A stretch of 64,000 bases of DNA from contig CANFOZ010000002.1 in the NCBI GenBank assembly GCA_947448795.1, positions 29,642 through 93,641 on the forward strand. The letters run 5' to 3'. The position numbers and the translations under genes are program-made. The notes below the pieces were generated by a model. It ran no database searches, was not told the origin of the DNA, and was given only the letters and a program-made list of their open reading frames with translations. The stretch comes from Bacteroidota bacterium. GTDB lineage: Bacteria; Bacteroidota; Bacteroidia; AKYH767-A; JAHEYN01. Shown here in pieces: positions 8,389-64,000 of this stretch; the first letter of the stretch is position 1; each line of letters starts with the position of its first letter.

Positions 8389-8527
8389 TACGATAAGATA
8401 GAAGCTATAGCAGATTGAATGCTTTTGTTTACGGCTTCTTAGGCGCGTTTCCGTTTTCTTGTTGATTCCAAAATGTTAACTTTGCAGAACAAATAAAGAG
8501 AAAGTAAAAGCATTCTCTTCGCATATC

Positions 8528-9922
8528 ATGGCACCACGTTATTCTCGTTTTTTCCGGACCGCCAATATCGTTGGAGATTTGTTTCTCCTCAATTTCGCTT
8601 TCTATTTGGTGAACAGTATCTGGTACAACGATTTAACGGTATCGTTCTCTTCGCATTACCTGAAACAGTTTGTTTACATCAATCTTTTTTGGGGTGTAGC
8701 GGCCTCCATCAATAGCACCTACGACATGTTTCGGGTGATGCGTATTGAAAAGGCCCTCGTGATGCTCATTCGCACCCAGTTGTTGCACCTGCTGCTCTGT
8801 TTCGCTTTCATCGTGATTTTTAAAGAGAAGATCTTGTCCTATCGTTTGTATTCCATCAAATACGCGGCATTCGTAGTGCTTGTGTTTTCCTGGCGTATTG
8901 GGTTTATCTACTCCTTGAAGTTTATTCGTAAAATGGGTTTGAACTTCCGCAACATAATCATTATAGGTACTGGTCCCGTGGCCTTGGAAGGTTTCGATTT
9001 CTTTAGCAGACACCCTGAGCACGGGTACCGATTCTTGGGCTTTTTTCGTGAACATGGTGAACAGAATGTGCTGAATAAAAAAACAGCAGAAGCATTATCT
9101 ATTAAAGAAGCAGAGCAGTTCTGTTTGGAAAATGATATTGATGAAATATACTGTTCCATGTCCGATGTCAAGCCAGAAAGCATCAAGCGCTTGATGCAAT
9201 TTTGTGATGATAACCTTATTCGCTTCAAGTTACTGCCAGATTTTAGAGGTTTCATGGGGAAGCGATTAGAAATAAATTTCTACGACTATATACCTGTGTT
9301 AACTCCGCGAAAGGAGCCCCTCGAGAATCCGTTAAATCGGTTTCTTAAGCGCATTTTTGATATCTTTTTTTCCTTGCTGATCATCGTGCTTTTTTTTCCA
9401 TGGCTGTTCCCATTGGTTGCCTTGCTTATTAAGCTATCCTCAAAGGGGCCTGTGTTTTTTGTTCAATGGCGTACCGGTATTAATAAAAAACCTTTTCGCT
9501 GTTTCAAGTTTCGCTCCATGCGTGCCGATTTTGTTTCGAATGCTCAGGCCTCTATTAATGATCCTCGTGTAACCCCAATTGGTCGGTTTTTGCGTGCTAG
9601 CTCGATAGATGAGATGCCCCAGTTTTTGAATGTATTATTAGGCAATATGTCTGTCGTTGGACCTCGTCCGCACATGATCCAGCACACCGATAAATACGCT
9701 CAAATTATAAGTGGATTTATGGTTCGTCATTTTGTTAAACCAGGCATCACCGGACTTGCTCAGGTGAGCGGTTTTCGTGGACAAACAGCCGATCCAGAAC
9801 TGATGCGCGGTCGTATCGAGCGGGATATCTGGTACATCGAGAATTGGTCTATCTTGTTTGATGTTAAAATCATACTGTTAACGCTTATTAAAATTTTCAA
9901 AGGCGATGAAAATGCGCATTAA
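8528..9922 (+). CDS. Polyprenyl-phosphate sugar-1-phosphate transferase (WbaP/WcaJ-type bacterial sugar transferase).
   Basis: 464 aa with N-terminal TM helices. C-terminal Bac_transf domain (FFSLLIIVL...KGPVFFVQWRTG...FKFRSM...EMPQFLNVLLGNMSVVGPRP). Confidence 0.8.
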   Translation: MAPRYSRFFRTANIVGDLFLLNFAFYLVNSIWYNDLTVSFSSHYLKQFVYINLFWGVAASINSTYDMFRVMRIEKALVMLIRTQLLHLLLCFAFIVIFKEKILSYRLYSIKYAAFVVLVFSWRIGFIYSLKFIRKMGLNFRNIIIIGTGPVALEGFDFFSRHPEHGYRFLGFFREHGEQNVLNKKTAEALSIKEAEQFCLENDIDEIYCSMSDVKPESIKRLMQFCDDNLIRFKLLPDFRGFMGKRLEINFYDYIPVLTPRKEPLENPLNRFLKRIFDIFFSLLIIVLFFPWLFPLVALLIKLSSKGPVFFVQWRTGINKKPFRCFKFRSMRADFVSNAQASINDPRVTPIGRFLRASSIDEMPQFLNVLLGNMSVVGPRPHMIQHTDKYAQIISGFMVRHFVKPGITGLAQVSGFRGQTADPELMRGRIERDIWYIENWSILFDVKIILLTLIKIFKGDENAH

Positions 9923-23100: not shown

Positions 23101-24486
23101 ATCCTGCGTGCCCACAAAGCCATAGGCATCTAAAATAGGCTTTACACTATTGATGTCCCTTATTCCTGCGCTTTGCGATACATTGCGGTAGATGTTGTTC
23201 GAATAGTTCGATGGGTAGGGTACATTCAATGTGTCAGGTCCAACCGAAACAGAGCCGAAAGTAACACCGGTATTGTAAACCGTGCGCTCGCCTAAATCTA
23301 AGATCGCTGCAATGTTTCGGATGTTATCTACATTGCCTTGCTTCCGTGTTACCCAAACCTCCACTCGGCTAATGTTAACCGGTGATTTTACTTCCGGTAG
23401 CTCGGAGAGAAATTTATCGTAATTATCCTTGAAATACTGTGCGAGAAAAAAGTGTTTGTTGGCCTCATACTGATCCGCTTTTACTTCATAGAATGAAGTT
23501 TGCGCACCGCCTTGTGATTCCACCGTCTGTTTCTTGCCCTTTTGCTGCGAGTAAATACTCGTCATCTTCAGTCGCCCAAATTGAAGCGCTGTTTTAATAC
23601 CAAATAAACTCTGGCTGCCGGTAATCAAACTACTAGTAAGCGGCAGACTGACATTGCCCATTTCAATCTTTTTGATGATCTCGTCCTCGTAACCGGTGTA
23701 CTCAATCTTCATCTGATTCTCGAAGTCGAACTGCGACTCTGTATTGTACGATGTTGTGATCTTCATCTTATCGCCGATGTTTCCAATCACATTCATCTGA
23801 ATCTTCTGATTAAAATCGAATTGCGGCGGTGGCTTCTGCGAACGAACCGGAAGCGATGGGTTTTCATTGGTGCTGCGACGCAGGCCGAACAAAAGCTCGG
23901 CTGAACCGTTGGGCTTAATATCTACGGTGTTTCCTCCAAAAATGAGGTCGAACACTTCATTGTTTACATGCAACACCGGAATGAGCGCATTCTTTTTTAC
24001 CACATTCTCTTCCTCTGATCGCTGCTTGAAATAATTAATCTGCGATTTTCTGAACTCGCCATCCACAAACTCATCAAATGTTAAATAGCTTGGGTTACGG
24101 TAAAACATGCGCCCGATGCCTTCGTTGATGTCGTATTGATTCTCATCCGGATTGTATTCCACCGTCTTGATTACATTCGAAGGGTCATGCAAAAAGAGCG
24201 GACTGCTGCTTGTCCCATTCTCGTCTTCGAGGATATGGTCTTCAAATGGATAGCGCAAGTGAATTACGCTATCGCTGTCTGCTTTTAGCATAGGGCTAAG
24301 CAGCGCGTTTTTAAAGGGCGAGATAAGCGCAGGACTCGACATCCAAGCCATGGTAAAACCCATAGCCAGTAAGCAGAACAGCAGTGTATTCTTTGCTTTA
24401 AAGGATGTATTGAAAACCTTTTTCGTCACAGCGCGGAGCCTTCTAAGGGTATTGTTTCGTGCAGGTATTAAATAAGGAAAAGGCAC
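17140..24486 (-). CDS. sprA: SprA, the giant outer-membrane T9SS translocon / gliding-motility protein.
   Basis: 2448 aa single ORF. It has a signal/TM start and an Asn/Tyr/Gly-rich beta-barrel composition ending in an aromatic residue. Size and composition match Bacteroidota SprA (~2400 aa). Confidence 0.85.
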   Translation of the reverse strand: MPFPYLIPARNNTLRRLRAVTKKVFNTSFKAKNTLLFCLLAMGFTMAWMSSPALISPFKNALLSPMLKADSDSVIHLRYPFEDHILEDENGTSSSPLFLHDPSNVIKTVEYNPDENQYDINEGIGRMFYRNPSYLTFDEFVDGEFRKSQINYFKQRSEEENVVKKNALIPVLHVNNEVFDLIFGGNTVDIKPNGSAELLFGLRRSTNENPSLPVRSQKPPPQFDFNQKIQMNVIGNIGDKMKITTSYNTESQFDFENQMKIEYTGYEDEIIKKIEMGNVSLPLTSSLITGSQSLFGIKTALQFGRLKMTSIYSQQKGKKQTVESQGGAQTSFYEVKADQYEANKHFFLAQYFKDNYDKFLSELPEVKSPVNISRVEVWVTRKQGNVDNIRNIAAILDLGERTVYNTGVTFGSVSVGPDTLNVPYPSNYSNNIYRNVSQSAGIRDINSVKPILDAYGFVGTQDYEKLEARLLASSEYTVNSRLGYISLNQTLNPNEVLAVSFEYTIGGNTYRVGEFSNGGIAAPSALLVKLLKGTVFTTKLPTWDLMMKNIYSIGAFQINREDFKLNIMYDNAASGIPVNYLPAGGNEPKVNGVNLLKVLNLDKTNAQNDPQPNGEFDFMEGLTINADKGRIIFPVREPFGSFLRSKFLDQATANQYAFDFLYDSTKTRAQQDLEHNRYSLKGSYKSTSGSEINLNAFNIPQGSVTVTAGGVKLVENADYTVDYNLGKVKIINAAYLNSNTPIKCELESNSAFSFQTKTLFGTRLDYYINKDFSLGGTLLHLSERPITQKVSIGDESISNTIWGVDGTYKTDSRLLTRIIDKLPLYDTKEVSTITLAGEYARLQPGHSRQIDNKTGGTAYIDDFEGTKSTIDIKSPSLWTLASVPQFQPTLFREAQYTNDLRTGFNRARLGWFVIDPFFFESKAPDNIKNNPDELSYHYSRQVLETEIFPNKENANNQQSVNLSVLNLAYYPSERGPYNFDKAASDVSMGSLNGILNNPETRWGGMMRKLETTDFEATNVEFIEFWMMDPFIYNPTSSGGDLYFNLGNISEDILKDGIKNFENGLPIAENPIPTTTAAFSDSISVWGRIPLQQSVVNAFDNNPASRPFQDVGLDGIDNAHEQVFFNDYIGYDPGAANDPAADDYHHFRGTDYDNEGLSILQRYKRYNGLEGNSVTTERSPEAYPTSSTTLPDMEDINKDGMFSENEGYYQYKVSIKPGAMQNVGENFITDKLVTPPISLPNGKKESVTWYQFKIPINTPKSEKVGSIEDFHSVNFIRMFMRGFSDSLVCRFGKLQLVRSDWRRFPNDVGEKGAYVPIDNDKTVFDVTTVSIEENGNREPIKYVLPPGILRQRNAYSTNNNQLNEQSLVLQACGLADGSGRAAYKNISFDIRNYKKIRMYVHAEAGSGTDALKKGDLKAFIRLGNDFENNYYEYEINLTPTNWGASSDVEIWPDANTMLIDLEKLYNAKLDRNALNWAINKPYSVMDGENRITVVGSPRLNELHTIMLGIRNPYRYTSDSDDGLPKCAEVWFDELRVTDFDDKGGWAANARLSAKLADLGNVNVSGIHKSANWGSLEQKLNERSKNTETSYDASGTTELGKFLPEKSKLKIPVYMGYAEVWKRPKFDPYDPDVPLQNELDHYKTTNQDARRKEIIHQSEDYTVRRSLNFTNVKKEKGAGKKSHFYDVENVSLNYAYTDLYNRSESIQYKYQKTHRGGIAYVFGNTPKNVAPFAKSKALKSNWFKLIKDFNFQYSPSSVAFRTDLDRQYNEMLLRNTTGSPFGMDTNFNKSFSMSRNYDVKYDMTKSLKFDFQANNSSRVDEGAGRINRKDQDYQQAMDTIKNNLFGIDAPLGGRTTDYHHTGNVNYTIPINKIPILDWITPTSRYGYDYHWVTAPYKRDSLTYKMRPDTALGNTITNSKNIQLSANLNFTNFYNKVNYFKRVNQMKPGQVFPKRLKPIKTHEDSLRAKQDSLFHASAIGQVLHVGTKFLLAVKTGSLSFTSTDGTILPGYLQRTQFMGMDDRFEGPTTGFIFGSQKDIRMKAGDKNWITHDTLLNLPYTKTHMDNIMGKVNIEPLPGFKIDLNVTRNYTLNHSEYFHYYSDSTGTSGYKGFSPTETGNFSMSYFSLNTAFEKQSKPDYTSAAFENFKAYRTIISERLSSENPNASQMRDTAGYYKGYGSTSQEVLIPAFLAAYGSNHSPENESLANGSSKHAKHSLFAAIPIPNWRISYDGLSKLEATKKYFNTVTISHGYRSTYNINNFTTSTLFIEDINGHSLAVNDTGDFRSRFEIGQISIAEQFSPLLGIDMNWKSGFTNKLEYKRDRNISLNLANTNVNETRGAEYVLGMGYKLKNYKIPFKINAQTVRLKNDLIFKTDFSYRRSLTISRALVQETVQPTGGMRTKKISTSIEYMVNERFNLKLFHEWSRNIPEISTSFKTTNWNAGFSIRFTLS

Positions 24487-25218: not shown

Positions 25219-27510
25219 TTAGGAGTTTGTTCTAGATTGCGCATCTACCACCGCGATGGTAATCATGTTCACGATTTCTCGAACCGAGCTGCCCAATTGG
25301 AGAATATGTACTGGCTTTTTCATGCCCAATAAAACCGGTCCGATTGCTTCAGCTCCGCCAATCTCTTGGAGGAGTTTGTAGGCAATATTTCCGGCTTCCA
25401 AATTTGGAAAGATGAGCGTATTAGCGCCTTCGGTTGCTAATGGGGAGAATGGAAAATTGTCTCGTAGCATCTGTGGATTCAATGCAAAGTTGGCTTGCAT
25501 CTCTCCGTCAACAATGATTTCTGGATGCTTCTCATTGAGAATACGCACTGCTTCGCGCACAGCGATAGTTGATGGTTGATCGACCGAGCCATAGTTAGAG
25601 TAGGAGAGCATGGCGATCCTCGGCTTGAAGTTCATTTGCGTGAGCGCAGTGGATACAAGCAATGCAATGTCAACTAAATCGTTGGCAGTTGGGTTTGCAT
25701 TGATGGTTGTGTCGGCAAAGAATATAGGCCCTTTTTTCGTGATCATGATATACATGCCAGCTACCTTCCGCACACCTTCCTGAACGCCAATGATCTGCAA
25801 GGCAGGTCGAATCGTGTCTGGATATTTGCGCGTCAAGCCCGAAATTAAAGCATCGGCTTCGCCTGTCTCTACCATCATAGCGCCAAAATGGTTGCGCTCC
25901 ATCATCACCTTGCGTGCTTCATAAATATTGAAACCTCTGCGTTTTCTTTTTTCAAAAAACAAGTCGCCAAAGGCCATGCGTTTCTGCTCTTCTTTGCGCG
26001 GATCAATGATCGGGGTGTCGCCAAGATCGAGCTTGTTTTCTGCCATCAAGGCCCGGATCTTTTCGGCATTGCCAAGCAATATAGGAAAGGCAATACCTTC
26101 GTCACGAACCAACTGTGCTGCTTTTAGAATCTTGTAGTTGTCGGCTTCAGCAAACACCACACGCTTTGGATGCTGCTTGGCTTTGGACGTGATGGAACGA
26201 ATTAACTTGTCATCCAAGCCTAAGCGCCCCATCAGGTCGTTGTTGTATTTATCCCAATCAGTAATTGGCACGCGTGCCACTCCGGATTCCATTGCAGCCT
26301 TTGCAACGGCTGGAGCCACGGTGTATATCAAGCGTGGATCTAATGGTTTAGGAATGATATAGTCTTTGCCGAATACAATGTTCTTCTTGTTGTAGGCAAG
26401 GTTAACCATCTCCGGAACGGTTTCTTTGGCTAAGTTGGCCAAGGCATAAACCGCCGCTAGCTTCATCTCCTCATTGATCTGACGCGCCCTAACATCGAGG
26501 GCTCCACGGAAGATGAACGGAAAGCCTAAAACATTGTTCACTTGGTTAGGATAGTCGCTTCGGCCTGTTGCTAAGATAACATCTGGTCGACAGGAGATAG
26601 CGTCTTCATAACGAATCTCGGGGTCGGGATTAGCTAACGCGAAAACGACCGGATTCTTTGCCATGCTCCGCACCATGTCCTGCGATACCACATTGCCTTT
26701 AGAAAGGCCTAAGAATACATCCGCACCAGCCATGGCTTCTGCAAGTGTTGTGACTTTGGTATTCGATGCAAACATCTGTTTGTTATCGTCCAAACCCGTT
26801 CGGTCTTTTGTAATAGGACCTTTGCTGTCAAGCATAATCAGGTTGTCGAGCTTTGCGCCCAACTTCACATACAACTTTGCACAGGAAATCGCCGATGCGC
26901 CAGCGCCATTGATAACAATCTTTACTTTGTCGATTTTCTTGCCCGCTACTTCCAATGCATTGATCAGCGCGGCGCTCGAGATAATAGCCGTTCCGTGTTG
27001 ATCATCGTGCATGACAGGAATGTCCAAGCTGGCTTTCAAGCGTTTCTCAATTTCGAAACACTCCGGTGCCTTGATGTCTTCAAGGTTGATACCGCCAAAA
27101 GTAGGGGAGATGGCTTGCACCGTCTTCACAAAATCGTCGATGTCCGTTTGGTTAATCTCTATATCCATGGAGTCGATGTCGGCGAAGATTTTGAACAAAA
27201 GGCCTTTGCCTTCCATAACCGGCTTAGAGGCCTCTGGCCCAATGTTACCCAAGCCCAACACCGCTGTGCCATTGGAAATAACAGCCACGAGGTTGCCCTT
27301 CGCAGTGTATTTGTATACATCGTCCACATTTTCCGCAATCTTAAGGCAAGGTTCTGCCACACCGGGCGAATAGGCTAAAGAGAGGTCGCGTTGCGAACTG
27401 TATGGTTTAGTAGGTATAATTTCAATTTTGCCAGGTCTGCCCTGTGAATGGTAGTCTAGTGCGTCTTGTTTCAGGTTGTCTTTTTTCATAAGTATAGTGG
27501 CCTTAAGCAT
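25219..27510 (-). CDS. maeB: NADP-dependent malic enzyme (malic enzyme domain fused to a PTA-like domain).
   Basis: 763 aa. The N-terminal malic-enzyme domain contains NGAGASAI, and the C-terminal half is phosphate-acetyltransferase-like. Confidence 0.9.
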   Translation of the reverse strand: MLKATILMKKDNLKQDALDYHSQGRPGKIEIIPTKPYSSQRDLSLAYSPGVAEPCLKIAENVDDVYKYTAKGNLVAVISNGTAVLGLGNIGPEASKPVMEGKGLLFKIFADIDSMDIEINQTDIDDFVKTVQAISPTFGGINLEDIKAPECFEIEKRLKASLDIPVMHDDQHGTAIISSAALINALEVAGKKIDKVKIVINGAGASAISCAKLYVKLGAKLDNLIMLDSKGPITKDRTGLDDNKQMFASNTKVTTLAEAMAGADVFLGLSKGNVVSQDMVRSMAKNPVVFALANPDPEIRYEDAISCRPDVILATGRSDYPNQVNNVLGFPFIFRGALDVRARQINEEMKLAAVYALANLAKETVPEMVNLAYNKKNIVFGKDYIIPKPLDPRLIYTVAPAVAKAAMESGVARVPITDWDKYNNDLMGRLGLDDKLIRSITSKAKQHPKRVVFAEADNYKILKAAQLVRDEGIAFPILLGNAEKIRALMAENKLDLGDTPIIDPRKEEQKRMAFGDLFFEKRKRRGFNIYEARKVMMERNHFGAMMVETGEADALISGLTRKYPDTIRPALQIIGVQEGVRKVAGMYIMITKKGPIFFADTTINANPTANDLVDIALLVSTALTQMNFKPRIAMLSYSNYGSVDQPSTIAVREAVRILNEKHPEIIVDGEMQANFALNPQMLRDNFPFSPLATEGANTLIFPNLEAGNIAYKLLQEIGGAEAIGPVLLGMKKPVHILQLGSSVREIVNMITIAVVDAQSRTNS

Positions 27511-49136: not shown

Positions 49137-49715
49137 ATGTTTCTCGAACAATCAACCAATCGGAATAGGACCTCTGGATCCATTGAAGTAATCTGCGGAT
49201 CCATGTTCTCGGGCAAGACCGAGGAACTCATTCGGCGTTTAAAGCGTGCACGCATTGCTAAGCAGCGTGTCGAAATCTTCAAACCGCTTGTGGATCAGCG
49301 TTATCATGCTACGGATGTGGTCTCGCACGATGCTAATTCGATCGCATCAACTCCTGTTGATTGTGCTGGCAACATGTTGTTAATGGTAGGCGATATCGAA
49401 GTGGTTGGAATAGATGAGGCTCAATTCTTTGATTCCTTGCTGCCTGAGGTTTGTCAGAAGCTGGCTGCTGCTGGGGTTCGCGTTATCGTTGCTGGCTTGG
49501 ATATGGATTACCTTGGTAATCCGTTCGGCCCAATGCCTCAATTAATGGCAGTTGCTGACCATGTTACAAAGGTTCATGCTATATGTATGAACTGCGGTAG
49601 CCTTGCTCAGCATTCTTTTCGCAAGGCAAATAACGATGCTCAGATTCTATTGGGTGAACAGGAAAGCTACGCAGCCCTCTGTCGATCTTGCTTCCACGAA
49701 CAAGTTTCTAAATAA
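49137..49715 (+). CDS. tdk: Thymidine kinase.
   Basis: P-loop GSMFSGKTEEL and a C-terminal Zn ribbon (CMNCG...CRSC). Confidence 0.9.
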   Translation: MFLEQSTNRNRTSGSIEVICGSMFSGKTEELIRRLKRARIAKQRVEIFKPLVDQRYHATDVVSHDANSIASTPVDCAGNMLLMVGDIEVVGIDEAQFFDSLLPEVCQKLAAAGVRVIVAGLDMDYLGNPFGPMPQLMAVADHVTKVHAICMNCGSLAQHSFRKANNDAQILLGEQESYAALCRSCFHEQVSK

Positions 49716-52234
49716 TGGACCTGCACAGATATACGTTCGAAGATATTGCCAACATCGTTGGTGGATTGATGCAAGGTGCATCACCTTCGGCCGATTGGAG
49801 GCTGAATAAAATCCTCGTGGATAGTCGTAAGGTAAGTGATCCCGACGGTTCGCTTTTCGTTGCTATAGTGGGCGAAAGAAACGATGGACATGCCTACATA
49901 AAAGATTTGATTAATCAAGGCGTGCGTCATTTTCTGATCATGCATTGGGACGACAAATGGGCTTCTTTGCCAGCCTCTTTCATACTCGTGAAAGACACCA
50001 TGGTTGCCCTGCAGATGCTCGCTGCAGCCCATCGTATGAGGTTTGATATTCCTGTCATAGGCATCACGGGAAGCAACGGAAAAACAGTTGTTAAGGAGTG
50101 GCTTTTCCAATTGTTGGGGAGCGATAAAAACATAGTTCGAAGCCCAAAAAGTTATAACTCACAGGTGGGCGTTCCTCTTTCTATATGGCAGATGCAGGTG
50201 GAGCATGAGTTAGGCATCTTCGAAGCAGGGATATCACTTCCTGGGGAAATGAAGAAGCTCCAGAAGATGATACAGCCTACCATCGGTATCTTCACCAATG
50301 CAGGCCAAGCGCATGCTGAAAATTTCCCCGATCAACAGCAGAAGATTAGTGAGAAGATGCTGCTTTTTGAATCCGTAAACAAGTTGATATGGTGCAAGGA
50401 TTACGCCGCCATCACAGCAGCGATTAAAGACGCTAATATCGATGACGAAAAACTTTTTTCATGGTCGCGTAAAAGCAATGCAACGCTTGTTATCTCTAAA
50501 GTTTCTAAACCCGCTCGTCATCAGGATGGTGATACTTCGGAAGGCATTACACGCATTCAAGGAATCTACAAGCACGATTTTATTGACATCGCAATTCCCT
50601 TCTCCGACGAGGCCTCCATTGAAAATGCTATTCATTGCTGGGCCCTTATGTTGCTGCTCGGCTACGACCAAGAACACATTGCCCAGCGGATGCTTTTGCT
50701 CAACCCTGTGGCGATGCGTTTGGAATTAAAAGAGGGAATCAACAACTGCTCTGTCATCAACGATAGTTACAATTCGGATCTGGGATCGTTGGCTATCGCG
50801 CTGGATTTTATGAGCCAACAAAAACAAAACGCCCGCAAGACGGTGATCTTGTCAGATATCTTGCAAAGCGGAAAGAACGACGAGGCGCTCTATCGCGAAG
50901 TAGCGGCTATGCTAGAAGGCAAAGGGGTAGGGAAGTTGATTGGTATCGGCAAGGCAATTTCTGCTAATCAACATCTTTTTGTTGGCGAAAAATCATTTTT
51001 CGAAACAACAGAAGACTTTATTCGAAACTATCCGTCATTCTCTTTTAAAGATGAAACCATCTTGCTGAAAGGGGCGCGGATGTTTGGCTTCGAGGCAATC
51101 TCCAAAACATTACAACAGAAGGCACATCAGACCATTCTTGAAATTAATTTGAATGCACTGATTCATAATCTCAACTTCTATCGTTCCCGGCTAAAGCCTG
51201 AAACGAAGATCATGGGTATGGTGAAGGCCTACTCGTATGGAAGCGGTAGTTTTGAAATCGCCAATGTCCTGCAGTTTCATCGCGTTGATTATTTGGTGGT
51301 TGCATATGCCGACGAAGGCATGGAGCTCCGTCGTCGAGGCATAACCTTGCCGATTATGGTGATGAATCCAGAGGAGCAAAGTTTTGATACCATTATCAAC
51401 CACAATCTCGAACCAGAGATTTATAGTTTTCGAATTCTTAGCCAATTTACAGAGGCCGTGAAGCGTTCTTTGCGTGTTCGGCCTAACCTAGTTGTGCCAA
51501 TTCATCTGAAGCTGGATACGGGCATGCATCGTCTCGGTTTTGAAGAGCAAGAGATTTCAGAGCTCGTTGCTCGCATCAAAAACAATCGCTCGCTGCGCGT
51601 AGCTTCCGTATTCTCTCATCTTGCTGCCAGCGACGAGTCTGCCCAAGACGAGTTTACCCGAAACCAAGCCGATATGTTCAATCGGATTGCCGACGAAATT
51701 TGCTCGCAGTTCTTATATCCTGTGCTTCGCCACATGCTAAATTCGGCGGGCATCATCCGCTTCCCTGAGTATCAGATGGATATGGTTCGATTGGGTATAG
51801 GTCTCTATGGTATTGCGCCTTCTTCGCACGAGCAAAAGCAACTTCAAAATGTGGGGACATTGCGTACCACCATCTCGCAGATACGTTCAGTTACAGCAGG
51901 AGAAACGGTGGGCTATTCTCGCACGGGTAAAGCCATTCGAAACACAACGGTGGCAACTATCGCCATCGGCTATGCAGATGGAATTCCGAGGTCTTTGGGT
52001 AATGGTAAAGGAAAGGTGCTTGTAAATGGTATGTTTGCAGCAACCATCGGCAATGTTTGCATGGATATGATGATGATTAACATCACCGATATTCCTGCAC
52101 GCGAAGGAGATGAAGTTATTTTATTTGGTAGTGAATACCCGGTCTATCAGTTCGCCTCGGATGCAGACATGATACCATACGAGGTTCTAACCGGGATCTC
52201 CCAGCGCGTTAAGCGAATCTATTTTTTTGAGTAA
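49715..52234 (+). CDS. murF: Bifunctional UDP-MurNAc-tripeptide--D-Ala-D-Ala ligase (MurF) / alanine racemase (Alr) fusion.
   Basis: 839 aa. The N-terminal ~440 aa is Mur-ligase (GITGSNGKTVVKEW). The C-terminal ~390 aa is alanine racemase (the PLP Lys in VKAYSYGSG, and MDMMMI). Confidence 0.85.
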   Translation: MDLHRYTFEDIANIVGGLMQGASPSADWRLNKILVDSRKVSDPDGSLFVAIVGERNDGHAYIKDLINQGVRHFLIMHWDDKWASLPASFILVKDTMVALQMLAAAHRMRFDIPVIGITGSNGKTVVKEWLFQLLGSDKNIVRSPKSYNSQVGVPLSIWQMQVEHELGIFEAGISLPGEMKKLQKMIQPTIGIFTNAGQAHAENFPDQQQKISEKMLLFESVNKLIWCKDYAAITAAIKDANIDDEKLFSWSRKSNATLVISKVSKPARHQDGDTSEGITRIQGIYKHDFIDIAIPFSDEASIENAIHCWALMLLLGYDQEHIAQRMLLLNPVAMRLELKEGINNCSVINDSYNSDLGSLAIALDFMSQQKQNARKTVILSDILQSGKNDEALYREVAAMLEGKGVGKLIGIGKAISANQHLFVGEKSFFETTEDFIRNYPSFSFKDETILLKGARMFGFEAISKTLQQKAHQTILEINLNALIHNLNFYRSRLKPETKIMGMVKAYSYGSGSFEIANVLQFHRVDYLVVAYADEGMELRRRGITLPIMVMNPEEQSFDTIINHNLEPEIYSFRILSQFTEAVKRSLRVRPNLVVPIHLKLDTGMHRLGFEEQEISELVARIKNNRSLRVASVFSHLAASDESAQDEFTRNQADMFNRIADEICSQFLYPVLRHMLNSAGIIRFPEYQMDMVRLGIGLYGIAPSSHEQKQLQNVGTLRTTISQIRSVTAGETVGYSRTGKAIRNTTVATIAIGYADGIPRSLGNGKGKVLVNGMFAATIGNVCMDMMMINITDIPAREGDEVILFGSEYPVYQFASDADMIPYEVLTGISQRVKRIYFFE

Positions 52235-52240: not shown

Positions 52241-53368
52241 TTAGTTGCGAAAAATCCAGGCTGTACTGTCTTCCTTGCTTTTCACTTCGTGTAAAAGAAC
52301 CACCGCTTCTCTACGACGCGCAAAGTCTTTGTAAATAACCATGGTCAAGCCTTTGTTGGTGATTCCTGCAATGCTTGCTTGATAGCCTTTTTTTCGAAGC
52401 ATCTCGAGCATTTTCTCGGCATTGGATTGCACCGAGAAACAGCCGGCTACAACCAGGTATTGTTTTAATGTCGGTTCGGCCGAACTAAGAGCCGATGCGG
52501 GCGCCTGAGCTGGGGTTTCAATGGATGCTGCAGCTGGCTCCGGTGTGGCCGGTGTACTTGTAACTATGGCTGTTTCCTGCACTTCAGATTCTGCAACTTG
52601 CTGCAACGTATCTAAAGCTACTTCGTTTGTAGTGCTTTGCGCTGTTTGACTTTCGATCGGTTGTGTTGACTCTGCTTCGTGCTTGACAACCGGCACGGTA
52701 TCCATTTTCTTTGGATGCATCCATGAGCTATCCGAAAATGGATTCAGCATGGCCAATTGCTGCTGACTTGTTGGAAGATATCCGGAGCGGTAGGAGAGCC
52801 AACCGATTTCTCCCAAGCAAGCTAAAGCCATGATAGCAGCCGCTACTTTCCATTGTGTGGGGGAAAGGAAGCGAAGCTTTGGTTTTTTAACCGTGTTCTT
52901 TTTAGCGGTAGACTCGGCAGCGATTTTTTCAAACGCACCTTCTCTTTTCACGGCAGGCGATTGAACTTCGATGAGTCCAAAAGAATCCAAGAGATAATTG
53001 ACCTTGGTTTCTGCTTCGAAGCGAAGATTTTTTTCAATATCGTAATGCAATACCCCAATCTGTTCGAGGTCTAAACGTCTAGTTGATTCAAGCTCTTTAT
53101 TCCATCCTTCAATTTCGCGCGCGATGCTGAGATTGGCTTCTGGGTAGGAAATGTTCTCCGCTTCAGCGATTCGGTTTGCAAGCAGACCGTCGTTATTTTG
53201 GAGGCTGCGGTTGAAGGCGATATGCTTTGATGGAGGACTGAAGGTGTGTTGCGTTGGATGAATACGTGCACCTTGATAATTGGCCACAAATCCCCCAAAA
53301 CCTGGAACAATCACACAATCGTGACGATACAACAGATAGCTTATATGAGGGGTGATTTTCGGATCCAT
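52241..53368 (-). CDS. SPOR-domain protein with an N-terminal HU-like/CCDC81-like domain.
   Basis: C-terminal SPOR domain (YLVVAGCFSVQSNAEKMLEMLRKKGYQA...VIYKDF), a central TM helix and a Pro/Thr/Ala-rich linker. Confidence 0.65.
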   Translation of the reverse strand: MDPKITPHISYLLYRHDCVIVPGFGGFVANYQGARIHPTQHTFSPPSKHIAFNRSLQNNDGLLANRIAEAENISYPEANLSIAREIEGWNKELESTRRLDLEQIGVLHYDIEKNLRFEAETKVNYLLDSFGLIEVQSPAVKREGAFEKIAAESTAKKNTVKKPKLRFLSPTQWKVAAAIMALACLGEIGWLSYRSGYLPTSQQQLAMLNPFSDSSWMHPKKMDTVPVVKHEAESTQPIESQTAQSTTNEVALDTLQQVAESEVQETAIVTSTPATPEPAAASIETPAQAPASALSSAEPTLKQYLVVAGCFSVQSNAEKMLEMLRKKGYQASIAGITNKGLTMVIYKDFARRREAVVLLHEVKSKEDSTAWIFRN

Positions 53369-56104: not shown

Positions 56105-56557
56105 ATGAGGGCATTAATACAACGCGTTTCGTCAGCATCGGTTACGGTGGACGGTGAAGTTATTTCCAACATCGGCCTCGGAGCATTGGTATTATTAGGG
56201 ATCGAAGATCGCGATGGTGCTGAGGATATTGAATGGTTGGTAGGCAAAATCACCAAGCTCCGAATTTTTGACGACCCGCAAGGCGTCATGAATTATTCTG
56301 TGAAAGATGTTGCTGGTGAGCTTTTGGTGGTTAGTCAATTTACCTTGATGGCAAGCACCCAAAAAGGCAATAGGCCATCGTATATTCGGGCTTCTCGACC
56401 TGAACAGGCACGATTAATTTATCACTCCTTCATCACATCCTTGGAACTAAATATGGAGAGGTCTGTAAAAACAGGGGAGTTTGGTGCGATGATGCAGGTT
56501 GCATTAGTAAACGCAGGTCCAGTGACTATTTTTATAGATAGTCACAACAGGGAATAG
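56105..56557 (+). CDS. dtd: D-aminoacyl-tRNA deacylase.
   Basis: MRALIQRV..., SQFTL motif and NAGPVT C-terminal motif; 150 aa. Confidence 0.9.
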   Translation: MRALIQRVSSASVTVDGEVISNIGLGALVLLGIEDRDGAEDIEWLVGKITKLRIFDDPQGVMNYSVKDVAGELLVVSQFTLMASTQKGNRPSYIRASRPEQARLIYHSFITSLELNMERSVKTGEFGAMMQVALVNAGPVTIFIDSHNRE

Positions 56558-56560: not shown

Positions 56561-57319
56561 TTAAATTTCCTTCTTTGCCACGCGCAGAAATTTCTGCATT
56601 TGCACCCAAATATAAACACTATCAACGCTGGCCGGCCAAAGGGCTCGTGAGCCATGAACGCCGCGCGGCTCAGGCACATAGAAGTATTTGACTGCTGAAT
56701 GAACCCCTTCAATCAAGAATTGCACATCGGCTTTTTCTTCGGGGGTGCATACAATGAATACGGGCTTGGTGAGGCCTTCTATGGTATCGTGCACATTCAA
56801 TTTTCCGTCGAAATATTCGCCAGGCGAGAAGGCGAGTGCAGCAGCAACATGTTCATTTTCTTTGGCGATTTTTAAAACCAATGAAGCGGAGTAGGAGCTA
56901 CCCAATAGGATTACCTTTTGGCCAGTTAATGCATAGCAATATTCGACGGCAGCGAGAATGTCTTTTTCTGATTCTAGATAAGTGCTTTTCTTTTGAGCGC
57001 TATCTGCGGCAGCGGCAGTCTCGTTTTTGATGCCGTTCACTTCTCCGCCTGAACGCTGGTCGATGGCGATGCAGTTGAAGCCAAGATCATTGAATTTTTT
57101 TGCGGTAAAAAGGTATTCACCCCTGCTGAATTTACCCTGATGACAGAGAACAATCATGGGCGAGGTGTCGTCCAGCTTGTAGAAATCGGCTGTTATAGGC
57201 AGACTGTCAAGCGAAGGAAAGTGTATTTTTTCCTGTGCCATTAATTGGTTGATACCGAGCATCAGTAAAACCAGAAACGGGAGTTTTCTTTTCATCATTG
57301 TAGATCGTGCTATCAACAA
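56561..57319 (-). CDS. Secreted alpha/beta hydrolase (dienelactone-hydrolase-like).
   Basis: Signal peptide. The nucleophile elbow is GSSYS, and Asp/His residues lie downstream. Confidence 0.6.
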   Translation of the reverse strand: MLIARSTMMKRKLPFLVLLMLGINQLMAQEKIHFPSLDSLPITADFYKLDDTSPMIVLCHQGKFSRGEYLFTAKKFNDLGFNCIAIDQRSGGEVNGIKNETAAAADSAQKKSTYLESEKDILAAVEYCYALTGQKVILLGSSYSASLVLKIAKENEHVAAALAFSPGEYFDGKLNVHDTIEGLTKPVFIVCTPEEKADVQFLIEGVHSAVKYFYVPEPRGVHGSRALWPASVDSVYIWVQMQKFLRVAKKEI

Positions 57320-61450: not shown

Positions 61451-62026
61451 ATGAAGAAACTTGTTTTTGCAACCAATAACAATCATAAATTAGTGGAGGC
61501 GCGCGCACTGCTTCCGCAATACCAAATTCTTAGTCTGGCCGATATCGGTTGTTTTGAGGAATTGCCCGAAGATCAGGATACATTAGCCGGCAATGCCCAG
61601 CAGAAGGCGGAGTATGTTTTTCGGAAATTTGGAGTCGACTGTTTTGCCGACGATACTGGGCTGGAGGTAGACGCGCTTGGCGGTAGGCCAGGCGTTTACT
61701 CGGCGCGATACGCTGGTCCCCTGCGCAGTGCATCCGACAACATGAATAAGCTGCTTGAAGAGCTTCGTGGGCATACTGACCGAAAAGCAGCGTTCAAGAC
61801 GGTGATCGCACTTTATCTTGGTGGTGCATTAACCTGTTTTGAAGGTGCTGTTCAAGGCCAGATAACAGATAGTTTGAAAGGCGCTTCAGGGTTTGGTTAC
61901 GATCCCGTTTTTCAGCCCTTGGGTTATCAACACACCTTCGGGCAAATGACGGAGGTGGAGAAGAATCGTCTAAGCCATAGGGGGCGTGCTCTTGAGAAGA
62001 TGGCGTTCTTCTTTTCAGAGGCTTAA
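61451..62026 (+). CDS. rdgB: RdgB/HAM1-family non-canonical purine NTP pyrophosphatase.
   Basis: ATNNNHKLVE, FADDTGLEV and GFGYDPVF motifs. Confidence 0.9.
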   Translation: MKKLVFATNNNHKLVEARALLPQYQILSLADIGCFEELPEDQDTLAGNAQQKAEYVFRKFGVDCFADDTGLEVDALGGRPGVYSARYAGPLRSASDNMNKLLEELRGHTDRKAAFKTVIALYLGGALTCFEGAVQGQITDSLKGASGFGYDPVFQPLGYQHTFGQMTEVEKNRLSHRGRALEKMAFFFSEA

Positions 62027-62106: not shown

Positions 62107-64000
62107 ATGAAGCTACGAATTGGAATATTTTTTGGAGGAACTTCCCGCGAGCGGGAGATCTCCTTTGCAGGCGGCCGGACAGTTTATGACAATCTCAATA
62201 AATCGCTCTTTGAGCCCGTACCTGTTTTTGTTGATAGTTTTGGAAATTTCTGCCTTTTGCGTTGGGAATATATCTACAAAGGAAGTATTCGTGATTTTTA
62301 TCCTCCCGTAGATGCTATACCTCCTTCACCAAACGGTTTTCAGGTTTATGCCGAGGCCCTTGGAGACCTGCCTTCGGATCAACAGCAAGATTTGCTGTGC
62401 AAGATCGGAGAACCTTTGACCATCGAGCAATTGAAGCACAAAATCGACTTCGCTTTTTTGTGTTTGCATGGACCAGGTGGTGAAGATGGAAAGATACAAG
62501 GCCTTCTAGAATACCATCATATTCCATATTCCGGTTCGGGCATTCTGCCTTCTGCAATAGGCATCGACAAGGTGGTGCAGAAGGGTTTTATAAAGGCAGC
62601 TGGTTTTAGTAGCCCCGAGTACTTAGTTGTCAACCGCGACGAGTGGTTTGGAAGAAAAGACGCAGTTGCGCTGTTCGAACAAGCTAAGCAAACGGTAGGT
62701 TTTCCGATGGTTATTAAATCGGCCACACAAGGTTCTTCAATAGGCATACACATCTTGCGAGAAGCAGCCATAGATACCTTTGTGAATGCTATTGATGCTA
62801 GTTTTTTTACGCGTTCCTTGAAGGCACAGGATTGGAATCCCTTAACCAAAAATCAAAAAGTTGAGTTTCTACAGGGACTGTGCGACATACGCCACGGCCT
62901 TGGTATGCCTATGTTGGTGAACAAGCAATGCGTTTATCACCCAGAAGACCTTCTTAAACTACTTGATCAACAATTGAGCAAGGATGCAGAGGTCGTGTTG
63001 CAATCATTGGATACCGAAAGTCGAATTCTGATTGAGGGTTTTATCAAAGGAAAGGAGTTCTCTTGTATCGTTGTAGAAGACGAGCACCGACAGGTTATTG
63101 CCTTGCCTCCTACCGAAATCGTTAAGGGTGACGAGCTTTTCGACTATCGATCGAAGTATTTGCCAGGCCTTGCCCGTAAAGTAACACCTATTGAGATCGC
63201 CCCTGAAAATATTCGGGCCATTGCTCGCGTTTGTGAGCGTTTGTTTAAGGCGCTTGGATTTGATGTGTATGCACGTATCGATGGTTTTATTAGCGCCGAA
63301 GGGCAGATTTTTCTGAATGACCCCAACACTACCTCGGGGATGATGCCTTCGTCTTTTTTCTTTCATCAAGCCGCAGAAATAGGATTGAATCCTTCGCAGT
63401 TTTTAAGTTTCATAATACGGGCCTCGCTGATTAGTCGCATTCAAGATGCGAAGCACGATGGCCGGGTAGAGCCTTTGCTGGTTAAGTTAGATGCGCAGAT
63501 GTTAGAAGCGGGAAAGCACGGGGATAGCAAGAAAAAAGTGGCTGTTATTTTAGGTGGATATTCTTCGGAGCGACACATATCTGTGGAAAGTGGTCGCAAT
63601 GTGTATGAGAAACTAAGCTCTACTGAGAAATATGCTGCCACGCCCTATTTCCTTGCCCGTGAAGGCAAAGAATTAATTCTTTATACAATACCAATCAACA
63701 TATTGTTGAAGGACAATGCGGATGATATTCGCGAGAAATTGGTACATTTTCATACCCACGAAGTCATACGCGAGATTGTACAGCAGTGCGCTTCCATTAC
63801 GCAGCGTTTTTCTGGCCTTGATGAGCTTCCTGTTCCAAGAAAACTTTCTTTTGAAGATTTAGCCAAGGAGTCGGAAGTGGTGTTTATTGGTTTACACGGC
63901 CGTCCTGGTGAGGATGGTGAGGTGCAGCAGCATTTGGAGCGCGTGGGCTTGCCTTACAACGGTTCAGGTCCTGCATCCTCACAAATCACAATCGACAAGT
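62107..64000 (+). CDS. ddl: D-alanine--D-alanine ligase-family protein. A single ORF carries two tandem Ddl-like modules. The ORF is 3'-truncated by the window edge and is not in the supplied track.
   Basis: My manual translation from the ATG at 62107 gives an open frame to nt 64000 (>630 aa). Module 1 (~residues 1–440) contains IGIFFGGTSREREIS, LHGPGGEDG, EGFIKGKEF and RIDGFI. Module 2 starts near residue 480 with KKKVAVILGGYSSERHISVESG and LHGRPGEDGEVQQHLERVGLPYNGSG. Confidence 0.7.
   Translation, partial: MKLRIGIFFGGTSREREISFAGGRTVYDNLNKSLFEPVPVFVDSFGNFCLLRWEYIYKGSIRDFYPPVDAIPPSPNGFQVYAEALGDLPSDQQQDLLCKIGEPLTIEQLKHKIDFAFLCLHGPGGEDGKIQGLLEYHHIPYSGSGILPSAIGIDKVVQKGFIKAAGFSSPEYLVVNRDEWFGRKDAVALFEQAKQTVGFPMVIKSATQGSSIGIHILREAAIDTFVNAIDASFFTRSLKAQDWNPLTKNQKVEFLQGLCDIRHGLGMPMLVNKQCVYHPEDLLKLLDQQLSKDAEVVLQSLDTESRILIEGFIKGKEFSCIVVEDEHRQVIALPPTEIVKGDELFDYRSKYLPGLARKVTPIEIAPENIRAIARVCERLFKALGFDVYARIDGFISAEGQIFLNDPNTTSGMMPSSFFFHQAAEIGLNPSQFLSFIIRASLISRIQDAKHDGRVEPLLVKLDAQMLEAGKHGDSKKKVAVILGGYSSERHISVESGRNVYEKLSSTEKYAATPYFLAREGKELILYTIPINILLKDNADDIREKLVHFHTHEVIREIVQQCASITQRFSGLDELPVPRKLSFEDLAKESEVVFIGLHGRPGEDGEVQQHLERVGLPYNGSGPASSQITIDK

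What the first reader, a model, noticed from the sequence alone, without database searches (positions are those of the whole stretch)
62107..64000. Single ORF encoding two tandem D-Ala–D-Ala-ligase-like modules
My translation from 62107 runs without a stop to the window edge. It contains a complete Ddl-like unit (N-domain GGTSREREIS, central LHGPGGEDG, C-terminal ATP-grasp ending near NDPNTTSGM). A ~30-aa linker follows, then a second Ddl N-domain (VAVILGGYSSERHISVESG...LHGRPGEDG). Canonical Ddl is ~300–360 aa with one module. Both modules also carry long insertions relative to E. coli DdlB. A didomain Ddl could channel D-Ala–D-Ala or an alternative D-Ala–D-X dipeptide. One module could also be a degenerate regulatory copy.
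Basis: seen in the sequence. Interest (0 to 1): 0.6.

Follow-up and report, generated by a model that had tools for sequence, protein, structure and literature searches.

The report
Two-module D-Ala–D-Ala ligase gene
The window ends inside a real, widely conserved ~900-codon gene that joins two anciently diverged and apparently active D-alanine–D-alanine ligase units in one protein; databases call it a plain Ddl, but its second active site lacks two hallmark residues and its product is unknown.

Summary
An ORF runs from ATG 62107 to the window edge (631 codons). It holds a complete Ddl module, a ~30-aa helical linker and the start of a second Ddl module. A 99%-identical metagenome protein (P0001, 900 aa) gives the full length.

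The fusion is neither an artefact nor a rarity. At least 576 GTDB species genomes carry it, mostly uncultured Bacteroidota plus Hymenobacter, Pontibacter and Rufibacter. An insert-free ~800-aa version occurs in Peregrinibacteria/CPR.

In every architecture class the N-terminal module (A) keeps the canonical Ddl site (Ser150/Tyr216, DdlB numbering). The C-terminal module (B) keeps all ATP, Mg and D-Ala1 residues but always has Cys150, Phe216 and Thr281. A and B are as far from each other (22–30% identity) as from E. coli DdlB, and they evolve at the same rate. So neither is degenerate, and this is not a recent duplication.

The gene sits with a membrane PASTA-domain gene, as ordinary Bacteroides ddl does. 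In some lineages it is fused to that gene (Ddl-A–Ddl-B–TM–PASTA).

Module B's product, and whether a third canonical ddl coexists, could not be tested. I found no paper describing the protein. I rate it a new variant of a known kind, of moderate interest.

The parts
62107..64000 (+). 5' 70% (631 of ~900 codons) of the two-module Ddl-family gene; the ORF runs off the window
   Evidence: Full length inferred from P0001 (900 aa, 99% identical).
62107..63447 (+). Module A (residues 1-447): a complete canonical-type D-Ala:D-Ala ligase unit. It has E15, H121, E126, K155, K204, S210, E310, E317, K350-Y351, R390, D392, D405 (Asp where DdlB has Glu270), N407, G411 and S416.
   Evidence: Pfam N+C domains. 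PDB alignments to DdlA/DdlB-type structures at E 1e-35. The residues are invariant or nearly so in 41-78 family members. AF2 pLDDT is mostly above 90.
62236..62421 (+). Module A N-domain insert (about residues 44-105) relative to E. coli DdlB
   Evidence: MAFFT against DdlB places the insertion after DdlB residue 42. Short helices are predicted there. Part of it is shared with the insert-free classes.
62803..63012 (+). Module A central-domain insert (about residues 233-302), a small alpha/beta subdomain specific to the ~900-aa and ~1200-aa classes
   Evidence: Insertion after DdlB residue 172. DSSP elements E235-239, H248-258, H279-292 and E295-300, with pLDDT above 90. It is absent from module A of the ~800-aa and ~720-aa classes.
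63154..63159 (+). Codons for Lys350-Tyr351 of module A (equivalent to DdlB Lys215-Tyr216, omega loop FDYRSKYLPG)
   Evidence: Read directly from the sequence. Invariant in all 78 A modules.
63448..63531 (+). Inter-module linker (about residues 448-475), predicted helical and poorly conserved
   Evidence: Family consensus is 'x' throughout this stretch. AF2 predicts helix 454-474.
63532..64000 (+). N-terminal 156 residues of module B (residues 476-631). They include E488 (DdlB E15), H597-G-R-P-G-E602-D-G (H63, E68) and K631 (K97). The rest lies beyond the window.
   Evidence: The B-type hallmarks C684, K786-F787, R832, D834, E851, N853 and T862 are seen in P0001 and are invariant in the family.
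61451..62026 (+). Ham1/RdgB-type NTP pyrophosphatase gene immediately upstream; a frequent but not universal upstream neighbour of this gene
   Evidence: Pfam Ham1p_like at E 9e-63. It lies upstream in about 30 of 82 related loci.

Best explanation
[quoted passage not shown] Module A is a canonical-type D-Ala:D-Ala ligase. It has the full catalytic set, including the Glu15-Ser150-Tyr216 triad, and carries two lineage-specific inserts. Module B is a second, anciently diverged ligase that is also catalytically complete, but its second-substrate subsite is rebuilt: Ser150 to Cys, Tyr216 to Phe, Tyr210 to Leu, Ser281 to Thr, and Leu282 to Cys or Val. The two modules are inferred to pack against each other as a single-chain version of the usual Ddl dimer. 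Each is inferred to activate D-Ala as an acyl phosphate. A is inferred to make D-Ala-D-Ala for MurF, which in this genome is fused to alanine racemase. B is inferred to make either D-Ala-D-Ala with different kinetics or regulation, or a D-Ala-D-X product. The enzyme is evolutionarily coupled to a bitopic membrane protein with periplasmic PASTA domains. That protein is encoded just downstream in relatives and is fused to the ligase in some of them, which would place the ligase at the membrane. What is shown: the architecture, the residue conservation, the ancient A/B split, the co-inheritance of the modules, and the PASTA linkage. What is inferred: activity of both sites, the packing, a housekeeping role, and a distinct specificity for B.
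For: The ORF is continuous and carries the Ddl domains. More than 4700 relatives were found, and the top 120 are all 891-917 aa. There are 613 representatives at 50% identity with E<1e-30, and at least 576 GTDB species genomes match B-specific motifs. In 78 A modules and 78 B modules from four architecture classes, E15, H63, E68, K97, K215, R255, D257, N272 and (in nearly all) G276 are kept. A is always S150/Y216/D270/S281; B is always C150/F216/E270/T281. A-A identity across classes is 30-45% and B-B 31-46%, against A-B 22-30% and 28-31% to DdlB. The two modules evolve at equal rates with r=0.91. AF2 gives mean pLDDT 90.2 and pTM 0.89 for the whole chain, and the only structural matches are Ddl/Van ligases. 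Ordinary Bacteroides ddl lies in an L34-PASTA-RluD-ddl cluster. The two-module gene has PASTA within 800 nt downstream, or fused, in 46 of 72 loci, and RluD about 2.7 kb downstream in 16. Triple fusions have the order DdlA-DdlB-linker-TM-PASTA. One organism at 21-25% GC carries A and B as separate, unlinked genes, and CPR genomes keep the pair. MurF-Alr (NF008897) lies 10 kb upstream in the window. The Tyr216/Phe switch changes dipeptide versus depsipeptide output in E. coli and L. reuteri Ddl (PMC3378904). The Ddl dimer is a recurrent feature (PMC6899670).
Against: No biochemical data exist for any member. I could not test whether genomes with this gene also hold a third, canonical ddl, so the housekeeping role rests on gene context and on the gene's retention in small genomes. 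By overall identity, canonical Bacteroides Ddl is no closer to A than to B (27.0-27.6% vs 26.2-26.8%), so A is not simply the ordinary Bacteroidota enzyme. Neither module alone reaches the NCBIfam Ddl cutoffs (216 and 146 bits against 243). Intramolecular dimer-like packing is inferred from pTM only, because the coordinates could not be inspected. One conserved dimer-interface glycine (DdlB Gly74) appears by eye to be Gln in module B of P0001. The hallmark B residues lie outside the window and are taken from a 99%-identical protein. About a third of the related loci have no PASTA gene next door.
Confidence: 0.6

Rival explanations
1. Plain covalent dimer. Both modules simply make D-Ala-D-Ala, the fusion only stabilises the normal Ddl dimer, and the Cys/Phe/Thr changes in module B are neutral or fine-tune kinetics.
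For: All catalytic and D-Ala1-site residues are kept in both modules. Ddl normally dimerises (PMC6899670). The paper read here describes Y216F as gaining depsipeptide activity, and from my own recollection the mutant also keeps D-Ala-D-Ala synthesis. No vanH or vanX genes were seen among the window ORFs scanned. High pTM.
Against: A and B are as diverged from each other as from E. coli DdlB. The B-specific residues are invariant from Bacteroidota to CPR, which argues for selection on a distinct site. The pair also persists as two unlinked genes in one organism, so covalent stabilisation is not the point.
Confidence: 0.25
2. Module B is a D-Ala-D-lactate (depsipeptide) ligase like those of Leuconostoc and Lactobacillus, giving precursors with low glycopeptide affinity.
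For: Phe replaces Tyr216 invariably. The same Tyr/Phe switch controls dipeptide versus depsipeptide synthesis in E. coli DdlB and L. reuteri Ddl (PMC3378904). A VanW-domain gene lies near the Peregrinibacteria version.
Against: Scores to all D-Ala-D-Lac models are far below their cutoffs (for example NF000206 at 77 bits against 550). No VanH- or VanX-like genes were seen in the window or noted in the loci examined. A co-translated module A making D-Ala-D-Ala would undermine resistance. Cys150 has no counterpart, to my knowledge, in known depsipeptide ligases.
Confidence: 0.1
3. One module is a degenerate, non-catalytic regulatory or scaffolding copy.
For: Module B matches the Ddl profiles more weakly (146 bits against 216 for A), and the DdlB hydrogen-bond triad is broken in it.
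Against: K97, K144, E180, E187, K215, R255, D257, E270 and N272 are invariant, or nearly so, in B across four architecture classes, and G276 is mostly kept. B evolves no faster than A. B also exists as a stand-alone gene.
Confidence: 0.03
4. Assembly or sequencing artefact that joins two adjacent ddl genes.
For: None beyond the unusual length.
Against: The same continuous ORF is found in thousands of independent assemblies, including isolate genomes of Hymenobacter and Pontibacter. A protein held by two sources differs at only 5 of 631 residues.
Confidence: 0.01

Closest known systems
Canonical D-Ala:D-Ala ligase (E. coli DdlB, PDB 2DLN/1IOV; DdlA-type structures 3I12, 7U56)
   Same: Same three-domain ATP-grasp fold (Foldseek TM-score to target 0.8-0.9). 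The same catalytic residues are present in both modules. Module A keeps the Glu15-Ser150-Tyr216 triad and the FDY..KY omega loop.
   Different: Two non-identical modules in one chain, where the known enzyme is a homodimer of ~306-365-aa subunits. There are large inserts. Module A has Asp where DdlB has Glu270. Module B has Cys150, Phe216 and Thr281 and a rewritten omega loop (vLsleEKFlaGxGxN). Each module alone scores below the NCBIfam Ddl cutoffs.
Ddl with Phe at the Tyr216 position: Leuconostoc LmDdl2 (PDB 1EHI), Lactobacillus reuteri Ddl, and the E. coli DdlB Y216F mutant (PDB 1IOW)
   Same: Module B has Phe at exactly this position, the switch tied to dipeptide versus depsipeptide output (PMC3378904).
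   Different: Per, the L. reuteri enzyme keeps Ser at the position equivalent to DdlB Ser150 (triad F258-E17-S186), whereas module B has Cys there. All of those enzymes are single-module. Module B is not specifically similar to them (1EHI at E 1e-12, against DdlB at 1e-19).
Chlamydial bifunctional MurC-Ddl (NCBIfam NF011171)
   Same: A Ddl unit fused to another enzyme of the same pathway.
   Different: The partner there is a Mur ligase. This protein has no Mur ligase domain and scores 182 bits against a cutoff of 1015. JGI's automatic name for this family, 'UDP-N-acetylmuramate--alanine ligase', may derive from that fusion.
PknB/Stk1-type PASTA Ser/Thr kinases (NCBIfam NF033483)
   Same: In the ~1200-aa relatives the order is cytoplasmic catalytic part, linker, one TM helix, extracytoplasmic PASTA repeats. 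The partner protein aligns to the TM+PASTA part of the kinase model.
   Different: The cytoplasmic part is Ddl-A-Ddl-B rather than a kinase. In the window's lineage the PASTA protein is a separate downstream gene, and it lies outside the window.
Carbamoyl-phosphate synthetase large subunit (two tandem ATP-grasp halves with different steps; from general knowledge, not tested here)
   Same: An ancient internal pairing of two ATP-grasp units in one chain, both active, with divided labour. This is a model for how the protein may work.
   Different: A different ATP-grasp subfamily and different chemistry. Division of labour is established for CPS and is only inferred here.
Bifunctional MurF-alanine racemase (NCBIfam NF008897)
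   Same: Another fusion within the D-Ala branch, present in the same window (1163 bits against a cutoff of 804).
   Different: A known, curated family, and not linked to the two-module ddl in the other loci examined.

Membership tests
D-Ala-D-Ala ligase family (Pfam PF01820 + PF07478, ATP-grasp) | N-terminal and C-terminal Ddl domains above the Pfam gathering scores | tested here: met
   PF01820 at 159 bits (cutoff 34.6, two stretches) and PF07478 at 118 bits (cutoff 24). Precomputed hits on full-length relatives show N-C-N-C.
D-Ala-D-Ala ligase family (Pfam PF01820 + PF07478, ATP-grasp) | ATP and Mg2+ site residues (DdlB K97, K144, E180, E187, K215, D257, E270, N272) | tested here: met
   invariant or nearly so in both modules across 78 proteins. 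Module A has Asp in place of Glu270 in all 78, and Arg for K144 in 8 of 78.
D-Ala-D-Ala ligase family (Pfam PF01820 + PF07478, ATP-grasp) | D-Ala1 and transition-state residues (E15, H63, R255, G276, Ser281 hydroxyl) | tested here: met
   E15, H63 and R255 are kept in both modules and G276 in nearly all. Position 281 is Ser in A and Thr in B, so the hydroxyl is retained.
Canonical D-Ala:D-Ala-specific Ddl (EC 6.3.2.4) | Glu15-Ser150-Tyr216 hydrogen-bond triad and the FDY..KY omega loop | tested here: met
   Module A only: S210 and K350-Y351 with the fdyrxKYLpg loop, in all 78 A modules.
Canonical D-Ala:D-Ala-specific Ddl (EC 6.3.2.4) | The same triad in the second module | tested here: not met
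   Module B has Cys at position 150 (76 of 78) and Phe at 216 (76 of 78, the other two being alignment gaps), with an omega loop of vLsleEKFlaGxGxN. These residues lie beyond the window and were read from P0001.
Canonical D-Ala:D-Ala-specific Ddl (EC 6.3.2.4) | Score above the NCBIfam subfamily or equivalog cutoff for a single unit | tested here: not met
   Module A reaches 216 bits and module B 146 bits against the 243 cutoff of NF002378. Only the whole protein passes (355 bits), by summation. No equivalog model is reached.
Canonical D-Ala:D-Ala-specific Ddl (EC 6.3.2.4) | Makes D-Ala-D-Ala and is the cell's source of it | not testable with these tools
   This needs enzymology, complementation and whole-genome inventories.
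D-Ala-D-Lac / D-Ala-D-Ser (Van-type) ligases | Match to Van-type NCBIfam models at their cutoffs | tested here: not met
   The best scores are VanG at 99 bits (cutoff 495) and D_ala_D_lac at 77 bits (cutoff 550) for module B.
D-Ala-D-Lac / D-Ala-D-Ser (Van-type) ligases | Linked vanH/vanX (or vanT/vanXY) genes | tested here: not met
   None appeared among the 20 window ORFs scanned with Pfam or in the called genes of loci L001, L085, L086 and L091. L091 has only a VanW-domain gene. Not every window ORF was scanned.
PASTA-coupled cytoplasmic enzyme (PknB-like topology) | TM helix plus PASTA repeats encoded in the same protein or the adjacent gene | tested here: inconclusive
   The feature is met in relatives: adjacent or fused in 46 of 72 loci, with fusions carrying a TM helix. 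For this window the downstream gene lies beyond the edge. The 99%-identical contig has a PASTA gene 2 nt downstream.
Bifunctional MurC-Ddl (NF011171) | Mur ligase domains plus Ddl at the equivalog cutoff | tested here: not met
   There is no Mur ligase domain, and the score is 182 bits against 1015.

The most novel reading that the evidence does not exclude
Module B is a distinct enzyme with its own product: a D-Ala-D-X dipeptide or depsipeptide, or a D-Ala-D-Ala synthase with different control. The A-B pair works as a membrane-recruited unit whose output is tuned through the partner PASTA protein, which would sense peptidoglycan or lipid II outside the membrane. In the triple fusions, Ddl-Ddl would then take the place the kinase domain holds in PknB. 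That would be a previously undescribed control point for the D-Ala branch of cell-wall synthesis, shared by many Bacteroidota and, without the PASTA part, by CPR bacteria.
Probability: 0.25. Interest if true: 0.75.

Novelty: new variant of a known kind. Interest (0 to 1): 0.55.

Why it matters
Ddl is one of the best-studied antibiotic targets (D-cycloserine; the vancomycin-resistance ligases), and it is textbook as a single-module homodimer. Here a large group of environmental Bacteroidota and CPR bacteria use a fixed pair of two different Ddl-type active sites, usually in one chain. The second site lacks the Ser/Tyr pair that has been linked to dipeptide versus depsipeptide choice. If module B makes something other than D-Ala-D-Ala, the composition or regulation of peptidoglycan precursors in these phyla differs from the model organisms. 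The recurrent linkage and fusion with a PASTA membrane protein suggests a direct connection between wall sensing and precursor supply. On the practical side, current annotation hides the family behind 'D-alanine--D-alanine ligase' (awarded by summed score), 'hypothetical protein' or a wrong MurC name. If both sites simply make D-Ala-D-Ala, the finding is a tidy example of a dimer fixed as a single chain and is of modest interest.

Tried and rejected
- **Frameshift or misassembly artefact:** rejected, because thousands of independent assemblies show the same continuous ORF.
- **Recent tandem duplication:** rejected. A-B identity is 22-30%, no higher than either module's identity to E. coli DdlB, and the same A/B signatures occur in all four architecture classes.
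- **Degenerate second module:** rejected.
- **Second ddl in the window or within ±10 kb in 82 related loci:** none found.
- **Co-occurrence of a canonical ddl elsewhere in the same genomes:** could not be tested.
- **AlphaFold-database fold search,** wanted for organism names and the architecture census: the library was unavailable.
- **The listing of cluster members for taxon names:** returned none.
- **Literature:** searches for tandem or fused Ddl, ddl-PASTA linkage and Peregrinibacteria Ddl found nothing on this protein. One search failed on syntax.
- **P0195,** an apparent stand-alone B module: it sits on a 2.4-kb contig that starts 194 nt upstream, so it is uninformative.
- **Rfam:** no hits in the window.
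- **Inter-module interface:** it could not be checked against the DdlB dimer because model coordinates are not returned; only pTM is available.
- **Bacteroides Ddl bait:** Only the real proteins it retrieved (up to 94% identical) were used as evidence.
Full report
**1. The observation**

Translation of 62107-64000 on the + strand gives 631 codons with no stop. The start is ATG 62107, preceded by an in-frame TGA at 62089, and homologues begin with the same MKLRIG. Pfam finds Dala_Dala_lig_N twice and Dala_Dala_lig_C once within the window piece. NCBIfam gives only generic Ddl models for the whole piece and for each part. The window ends at Lys631, the equivalent of E. coli DdlB Lys97, so only the first ~156 residues of the second module are visible.

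The large protein database supplies the rest. P0001 (900 aa, held by ENA and JGI) differs from the window at 5 of 631 positions. The best 120 hits are all continuous 891-917-aa proteins with the same domain order.

**2. Anatomy**

Numbering follows P0001.

- **Module A** spans residues 1 to about 447.
- **The linker** is a poorly conserved, predicted-helical stretch at about 448-475.
- **Module B** spans about 476-892.

The two modules align colinearly at 24% identity. Against E. coli DdlB (306 aa), module A has extra sequence after DdlB residue 42, plus a ~65-75-residue alpha/beta insert after residue 172. Module B has extra sequence after residue 42 and a shorter insert near residues 172-184.

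An AlphaFold2 model built on a 41-sequence alignment has mean pLDDT 90.2 and pTM 0.89. Only the two omega loops have low confidence. A pTM this high for a two-module chain implies a defined packing of A against B. I could not inspect the coordinates, so the idea that this mimics the normal Ddl dimer (a recurrent feature of Ddl: PMC6899670) is an inference. Foldseek against the PDB returns only single-module Ddl, VanA, VanG and LmDdl2 chains (TM-score to target 0.76-0.91). No two-module structure has been solved.

**3. Both active sites are intact, but they are different**

I split 78 diverse two-module proteins into modules and aligned them with DdlB. I verified my DdlB sequence against the PDB alignments. 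Both modules keep E15, H63, E68, K97, E180, E187, K215, R255, D257 and N272, and nearly all keep K144 and G276.

| DdlB position | Module A | Module B |
|---|---|---|
| Ser150 | Ser | Cys |
| Tyr216 | Tyr | Phe |
| Glu270 | Asp | Glu |
| Ser281 | Ser | Thr |
| Leu282 | Phe | Cys or Val |
| Omega loop | fdyrxKYLpg | vLsleEKFlaGxGxN |

So module B has lost both hydroxyls of the Glu15-Ser150-Tyr216 triad. According to the work summarised in PMC3378904, that triad is tied to dipeptide versus depsipeptide output: E. coli Y216F gains depsipeptide synthesis, and the reverse F258Y change was predicted to switch L. reuteri Ddl to dipeptide synthesis and make it vancomycin-sensitive.

Across 3003 protein pairs, A and B have the same mean identity (36.8% and 37.6%), and their divergences correlate at r = 0.91. 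They have been inherited together under equal constraint. This rules out a degenerate copy.

**4. An ancient paralogue pair, not a duplication**

- A modules of different architecture classes are 30-45% identical to each other.
- B modules are 31-46% identical to each other.
- A versus B is only 22-30%.
- Either type versus DdlB is 28-31%.

The search of 50%-identity representatives found 613 representatives with E<1e-30 and four architectures:

| Length | Layout |
|---|---|
| ~900 aa | The window's type, with inserts in both modules |
| ~800 aa | Canonical-sized A plus B |
| ~720 aa | Both modules canonical-sized |
| ~1200-1285 aa | A, B and PASTA domains |

All of them show the same A and B signatures.

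The ~800-aa class belongs mainly to Candidatus Peregrinibacteria and other Patescibacteria, where NCBI calls it 'hypothetical protein'. One such locus sits near GlmM, a VanW-domain gene and a PBP2.

Stand-alone forms exist too. P0209 (A-type with inserts, 432 aa) and P0231 (B-type, 402 aa) lie on two long contigs of one metagenome. Both contigs have 21-25% GC, and their tetranucleotide profiles correlate at 0.99, so they are almost certainly one organism with the two genes unlinked. A second stand-alone A-type gene has no B neighbour. Covalent linkage is therefore common but not obligatory. The pair is also kept in CPR bacteria, which are known for very small genomes.

**5. Distribution**

The best 80 are mostly uncultured Bacteroidota from water and soil, plus isolates of Pontibacter, Hymenobacter, Rufibacter and Solirubrum.

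The window itself is ordinary Bacteroidota chromosome. It encodes SprA of the type IX secretion system, PheT, Tgt, LptF/G, RecG and the ATP synthase beta subunit, at 44% GC.

**6. Gene context**

In the window the gene follows a Ham1/RdgB gene.

- **Relatives.** The order is Ham1, two-module ddl, then a 264-267-aa PASTA-domain protein after a gap of only 2-6 nt.
- **Across the loci.** Of the 72 related loci with enough downstream sequence, 46 have the PASTA gene within 800 nt or fused. Sixteen also have an RluD-type pseudouridine synthase about 2.7 kb downstream.
- **Comparison with ordinary ddl.** Their gene lies in an L34-PASTA-RluD-ddl cluster. The two-module gene thus occupies the same neighbourhood as ordinary Bacteroidota ddl. 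This is the main argument that it serves peptidoglycan synthesis.
- **The PASTA partner.** It starts with a hydrophobic helix, and it aligns to the TM+PASTA part of the PknB/Stk1 kinase model.
- **The triple fusions.** The order is Ddl-A, Ddl-B, a Pro/Ala/Thr-rich linker, a TM helix, then the 'YTHHG' PASTA ectodomain. This is the topology of a PASTA kinase with the kinase replaced by the ligase pair.
- **Extra ddl copies.** None lies in the window or within ±10 kb in any related locus.

**7. Limits**

- Canonical Bacteroides Ddl has the A-like substrate-site signature (S150, Y216, S281, F282, FFDY..KY). By overall identity, however, it is equally far from A and B (27.0-27.6% and 26.2-26.8%). 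So neither module can be called the original enzyme.
- I could not test whether genomes with the two-module gene also hold a canonical ddl elsewhere.
- The product of module B is unknown.
- Scores to Van-type models are far below their cutoffs. No vanH or vanX was seen among the 20 window ORFs scanned or in the loci listed. A pure D-Ala-D-Lac resistance role is therefore not favoured.
- Each module alone falls below the NCBIfam Ddl cutoffs; only the sum passes. This explains the generic database name.

**8. Comparison with what is known, and verdict**

The protein belongs to the Ddl/ATP-grasp family by fold, domains and catalytic residues. Module A meets the tests for a canonical D-Ala:D-Ala ligase site. 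Module B fails the triad test and reaches the cutoff of no curated subfamily.

Known relatives in kind are:

- single-module Ddl;
- the Phe-containing depsipeptide ligases of lactic acid bacteria;
- the chlamydial MurC-Ddl fusion;
- the MurF-Alr fusion, which is present in this window at 49715-52234 (NF008897);
- as a functional analogy from general knowledge, the two ATP-grasp halves of carbamoyl-phosphate synthetase.

Seven successful literature searches found nothing describing a tandem Ddl or the ddl-PASTA linkage (and the papers read). That library is incomplete, so prior description elsewhere cannot be excluded.

I rate the finding a new variant of a known kind. The architecture is visible in databases but is unnamed and unstudied. 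The invariant Cys/Phe second site and the PASTA fusions are the parts a specialist would find unexpected. Interest: 0.55.

Noticed in passing
window 49715-52234 (+): An 839-aa MurF-alanine racemase fusion (Mur_ligase_M/C plus Ala_racemase_N/C; NCBIfam NF008897 at 1163 bits against a cutoff of 804). In this genome Alr and MurF are fused and Ddl is doubled, so all three steps of the D-Ala branch sit in unusual multi-domain proteins. It is not linked to the two-module ddl in the other loci examined.
   Followed up: partly
L083/L084 and L087/L088 (JGI metagenome 3300055001; SRR28520278, SRR28520274): An organism with only 21-25% GC carries a stand-alone A-type Ddl (432 aa, next to a Peptidase_S41 gene and MnmA, and 4 kb from a plain alr) and a stand-alone B-type Ddl (402 aa) on different contigs (tetranucleotide r = 0.99). 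The identity of this very AT-rich organism was not determined.
   Followed up: partly
L062 (Saprospiraceae MAG), and proteins P0122, P0124, P0126, P0162, P0170, P0174, P0193: Triple fusions of 1200-1285 aa: Ddl-A, Ddl-B, a Pro/Ala/Thr-rich linker, a TM helix and PASTA domains. This is a PknB-like topology with a ligase pair in place of the kinase.
   Followed up: partly
L091 (Peregrinibacteria-type contig, 461 kb), genes at 6706-7968, 8365-9744 and 19816-22143: The insert-free ~800-aa version lies near a VanW-domain gene, GlmM and a PBP2-type transpeptidase. NCBI annotates this class as 'hypothetical protein'.
   Followed up: no
L086 (JGI 1.1-Mb contig), 8001-10265 and the downstream genes: The ~720-aa version (both modules canonical-sized) is followed by two large WD40 beta-propeller genes and lies near an ankyrin-repeat gene. 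The lineage of this contig is unknown.
   Followed up: no
L089/L090 (Bacteroides reticulotermitis), 3861-6975: Ordinary 324-aa ddl lies in a tight L34-PASTA(215 aa)-RluD-ddl cluster (rluD and ddl overlap by 4 nt). I found no paper discussing this conserved ddl-PASTA linkage in Bacteroidota.
   Followed up: partly
Loci L022, L024, L041: Contigs carrying this Bacteroidota-type gene are labelled Candidatus Saccharibacteria, Synechococcus sp. and Akkermansia sp. in their MAG records. These are likely mis-binned contigs or wrong taxon labels.
   Followed up: no
Annotation of the family: JGI names many of these proteins 'UDP-N-acetylmuramate--alanine ligase' although they have no Mur ligase domain. 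NCBI names them 'D-alanine--D-alanine ligase' in Bacteroidota and 'hypothetical protein' in CPR.
   Followed up: no
window 17140-24486 (-): A 2448-aa SprA homologue (the type IX secretion translocon), which confirms a Bacteroidota origin for the window.
   Followed up: no
window 52241-53368 (-) and 56105-56557 (+): A protein with two HU-CCDC81 domains and a C-terminal SPOR (septal peptidoglycan-binding) domain, and a D-Tyr-tRNA deacylase. Both lie between the MurF-Alr gene and the two-module ddl. The 252-aa ORF at 56561-57319 (-) has no Pfam match.
   Followed up: no
window 25219-27510 (-): A 763-aa malic enzyme fused to a phosphate acetyltransferase-like domain (MaeB-type architecture); ordinary.
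   Followed up: no
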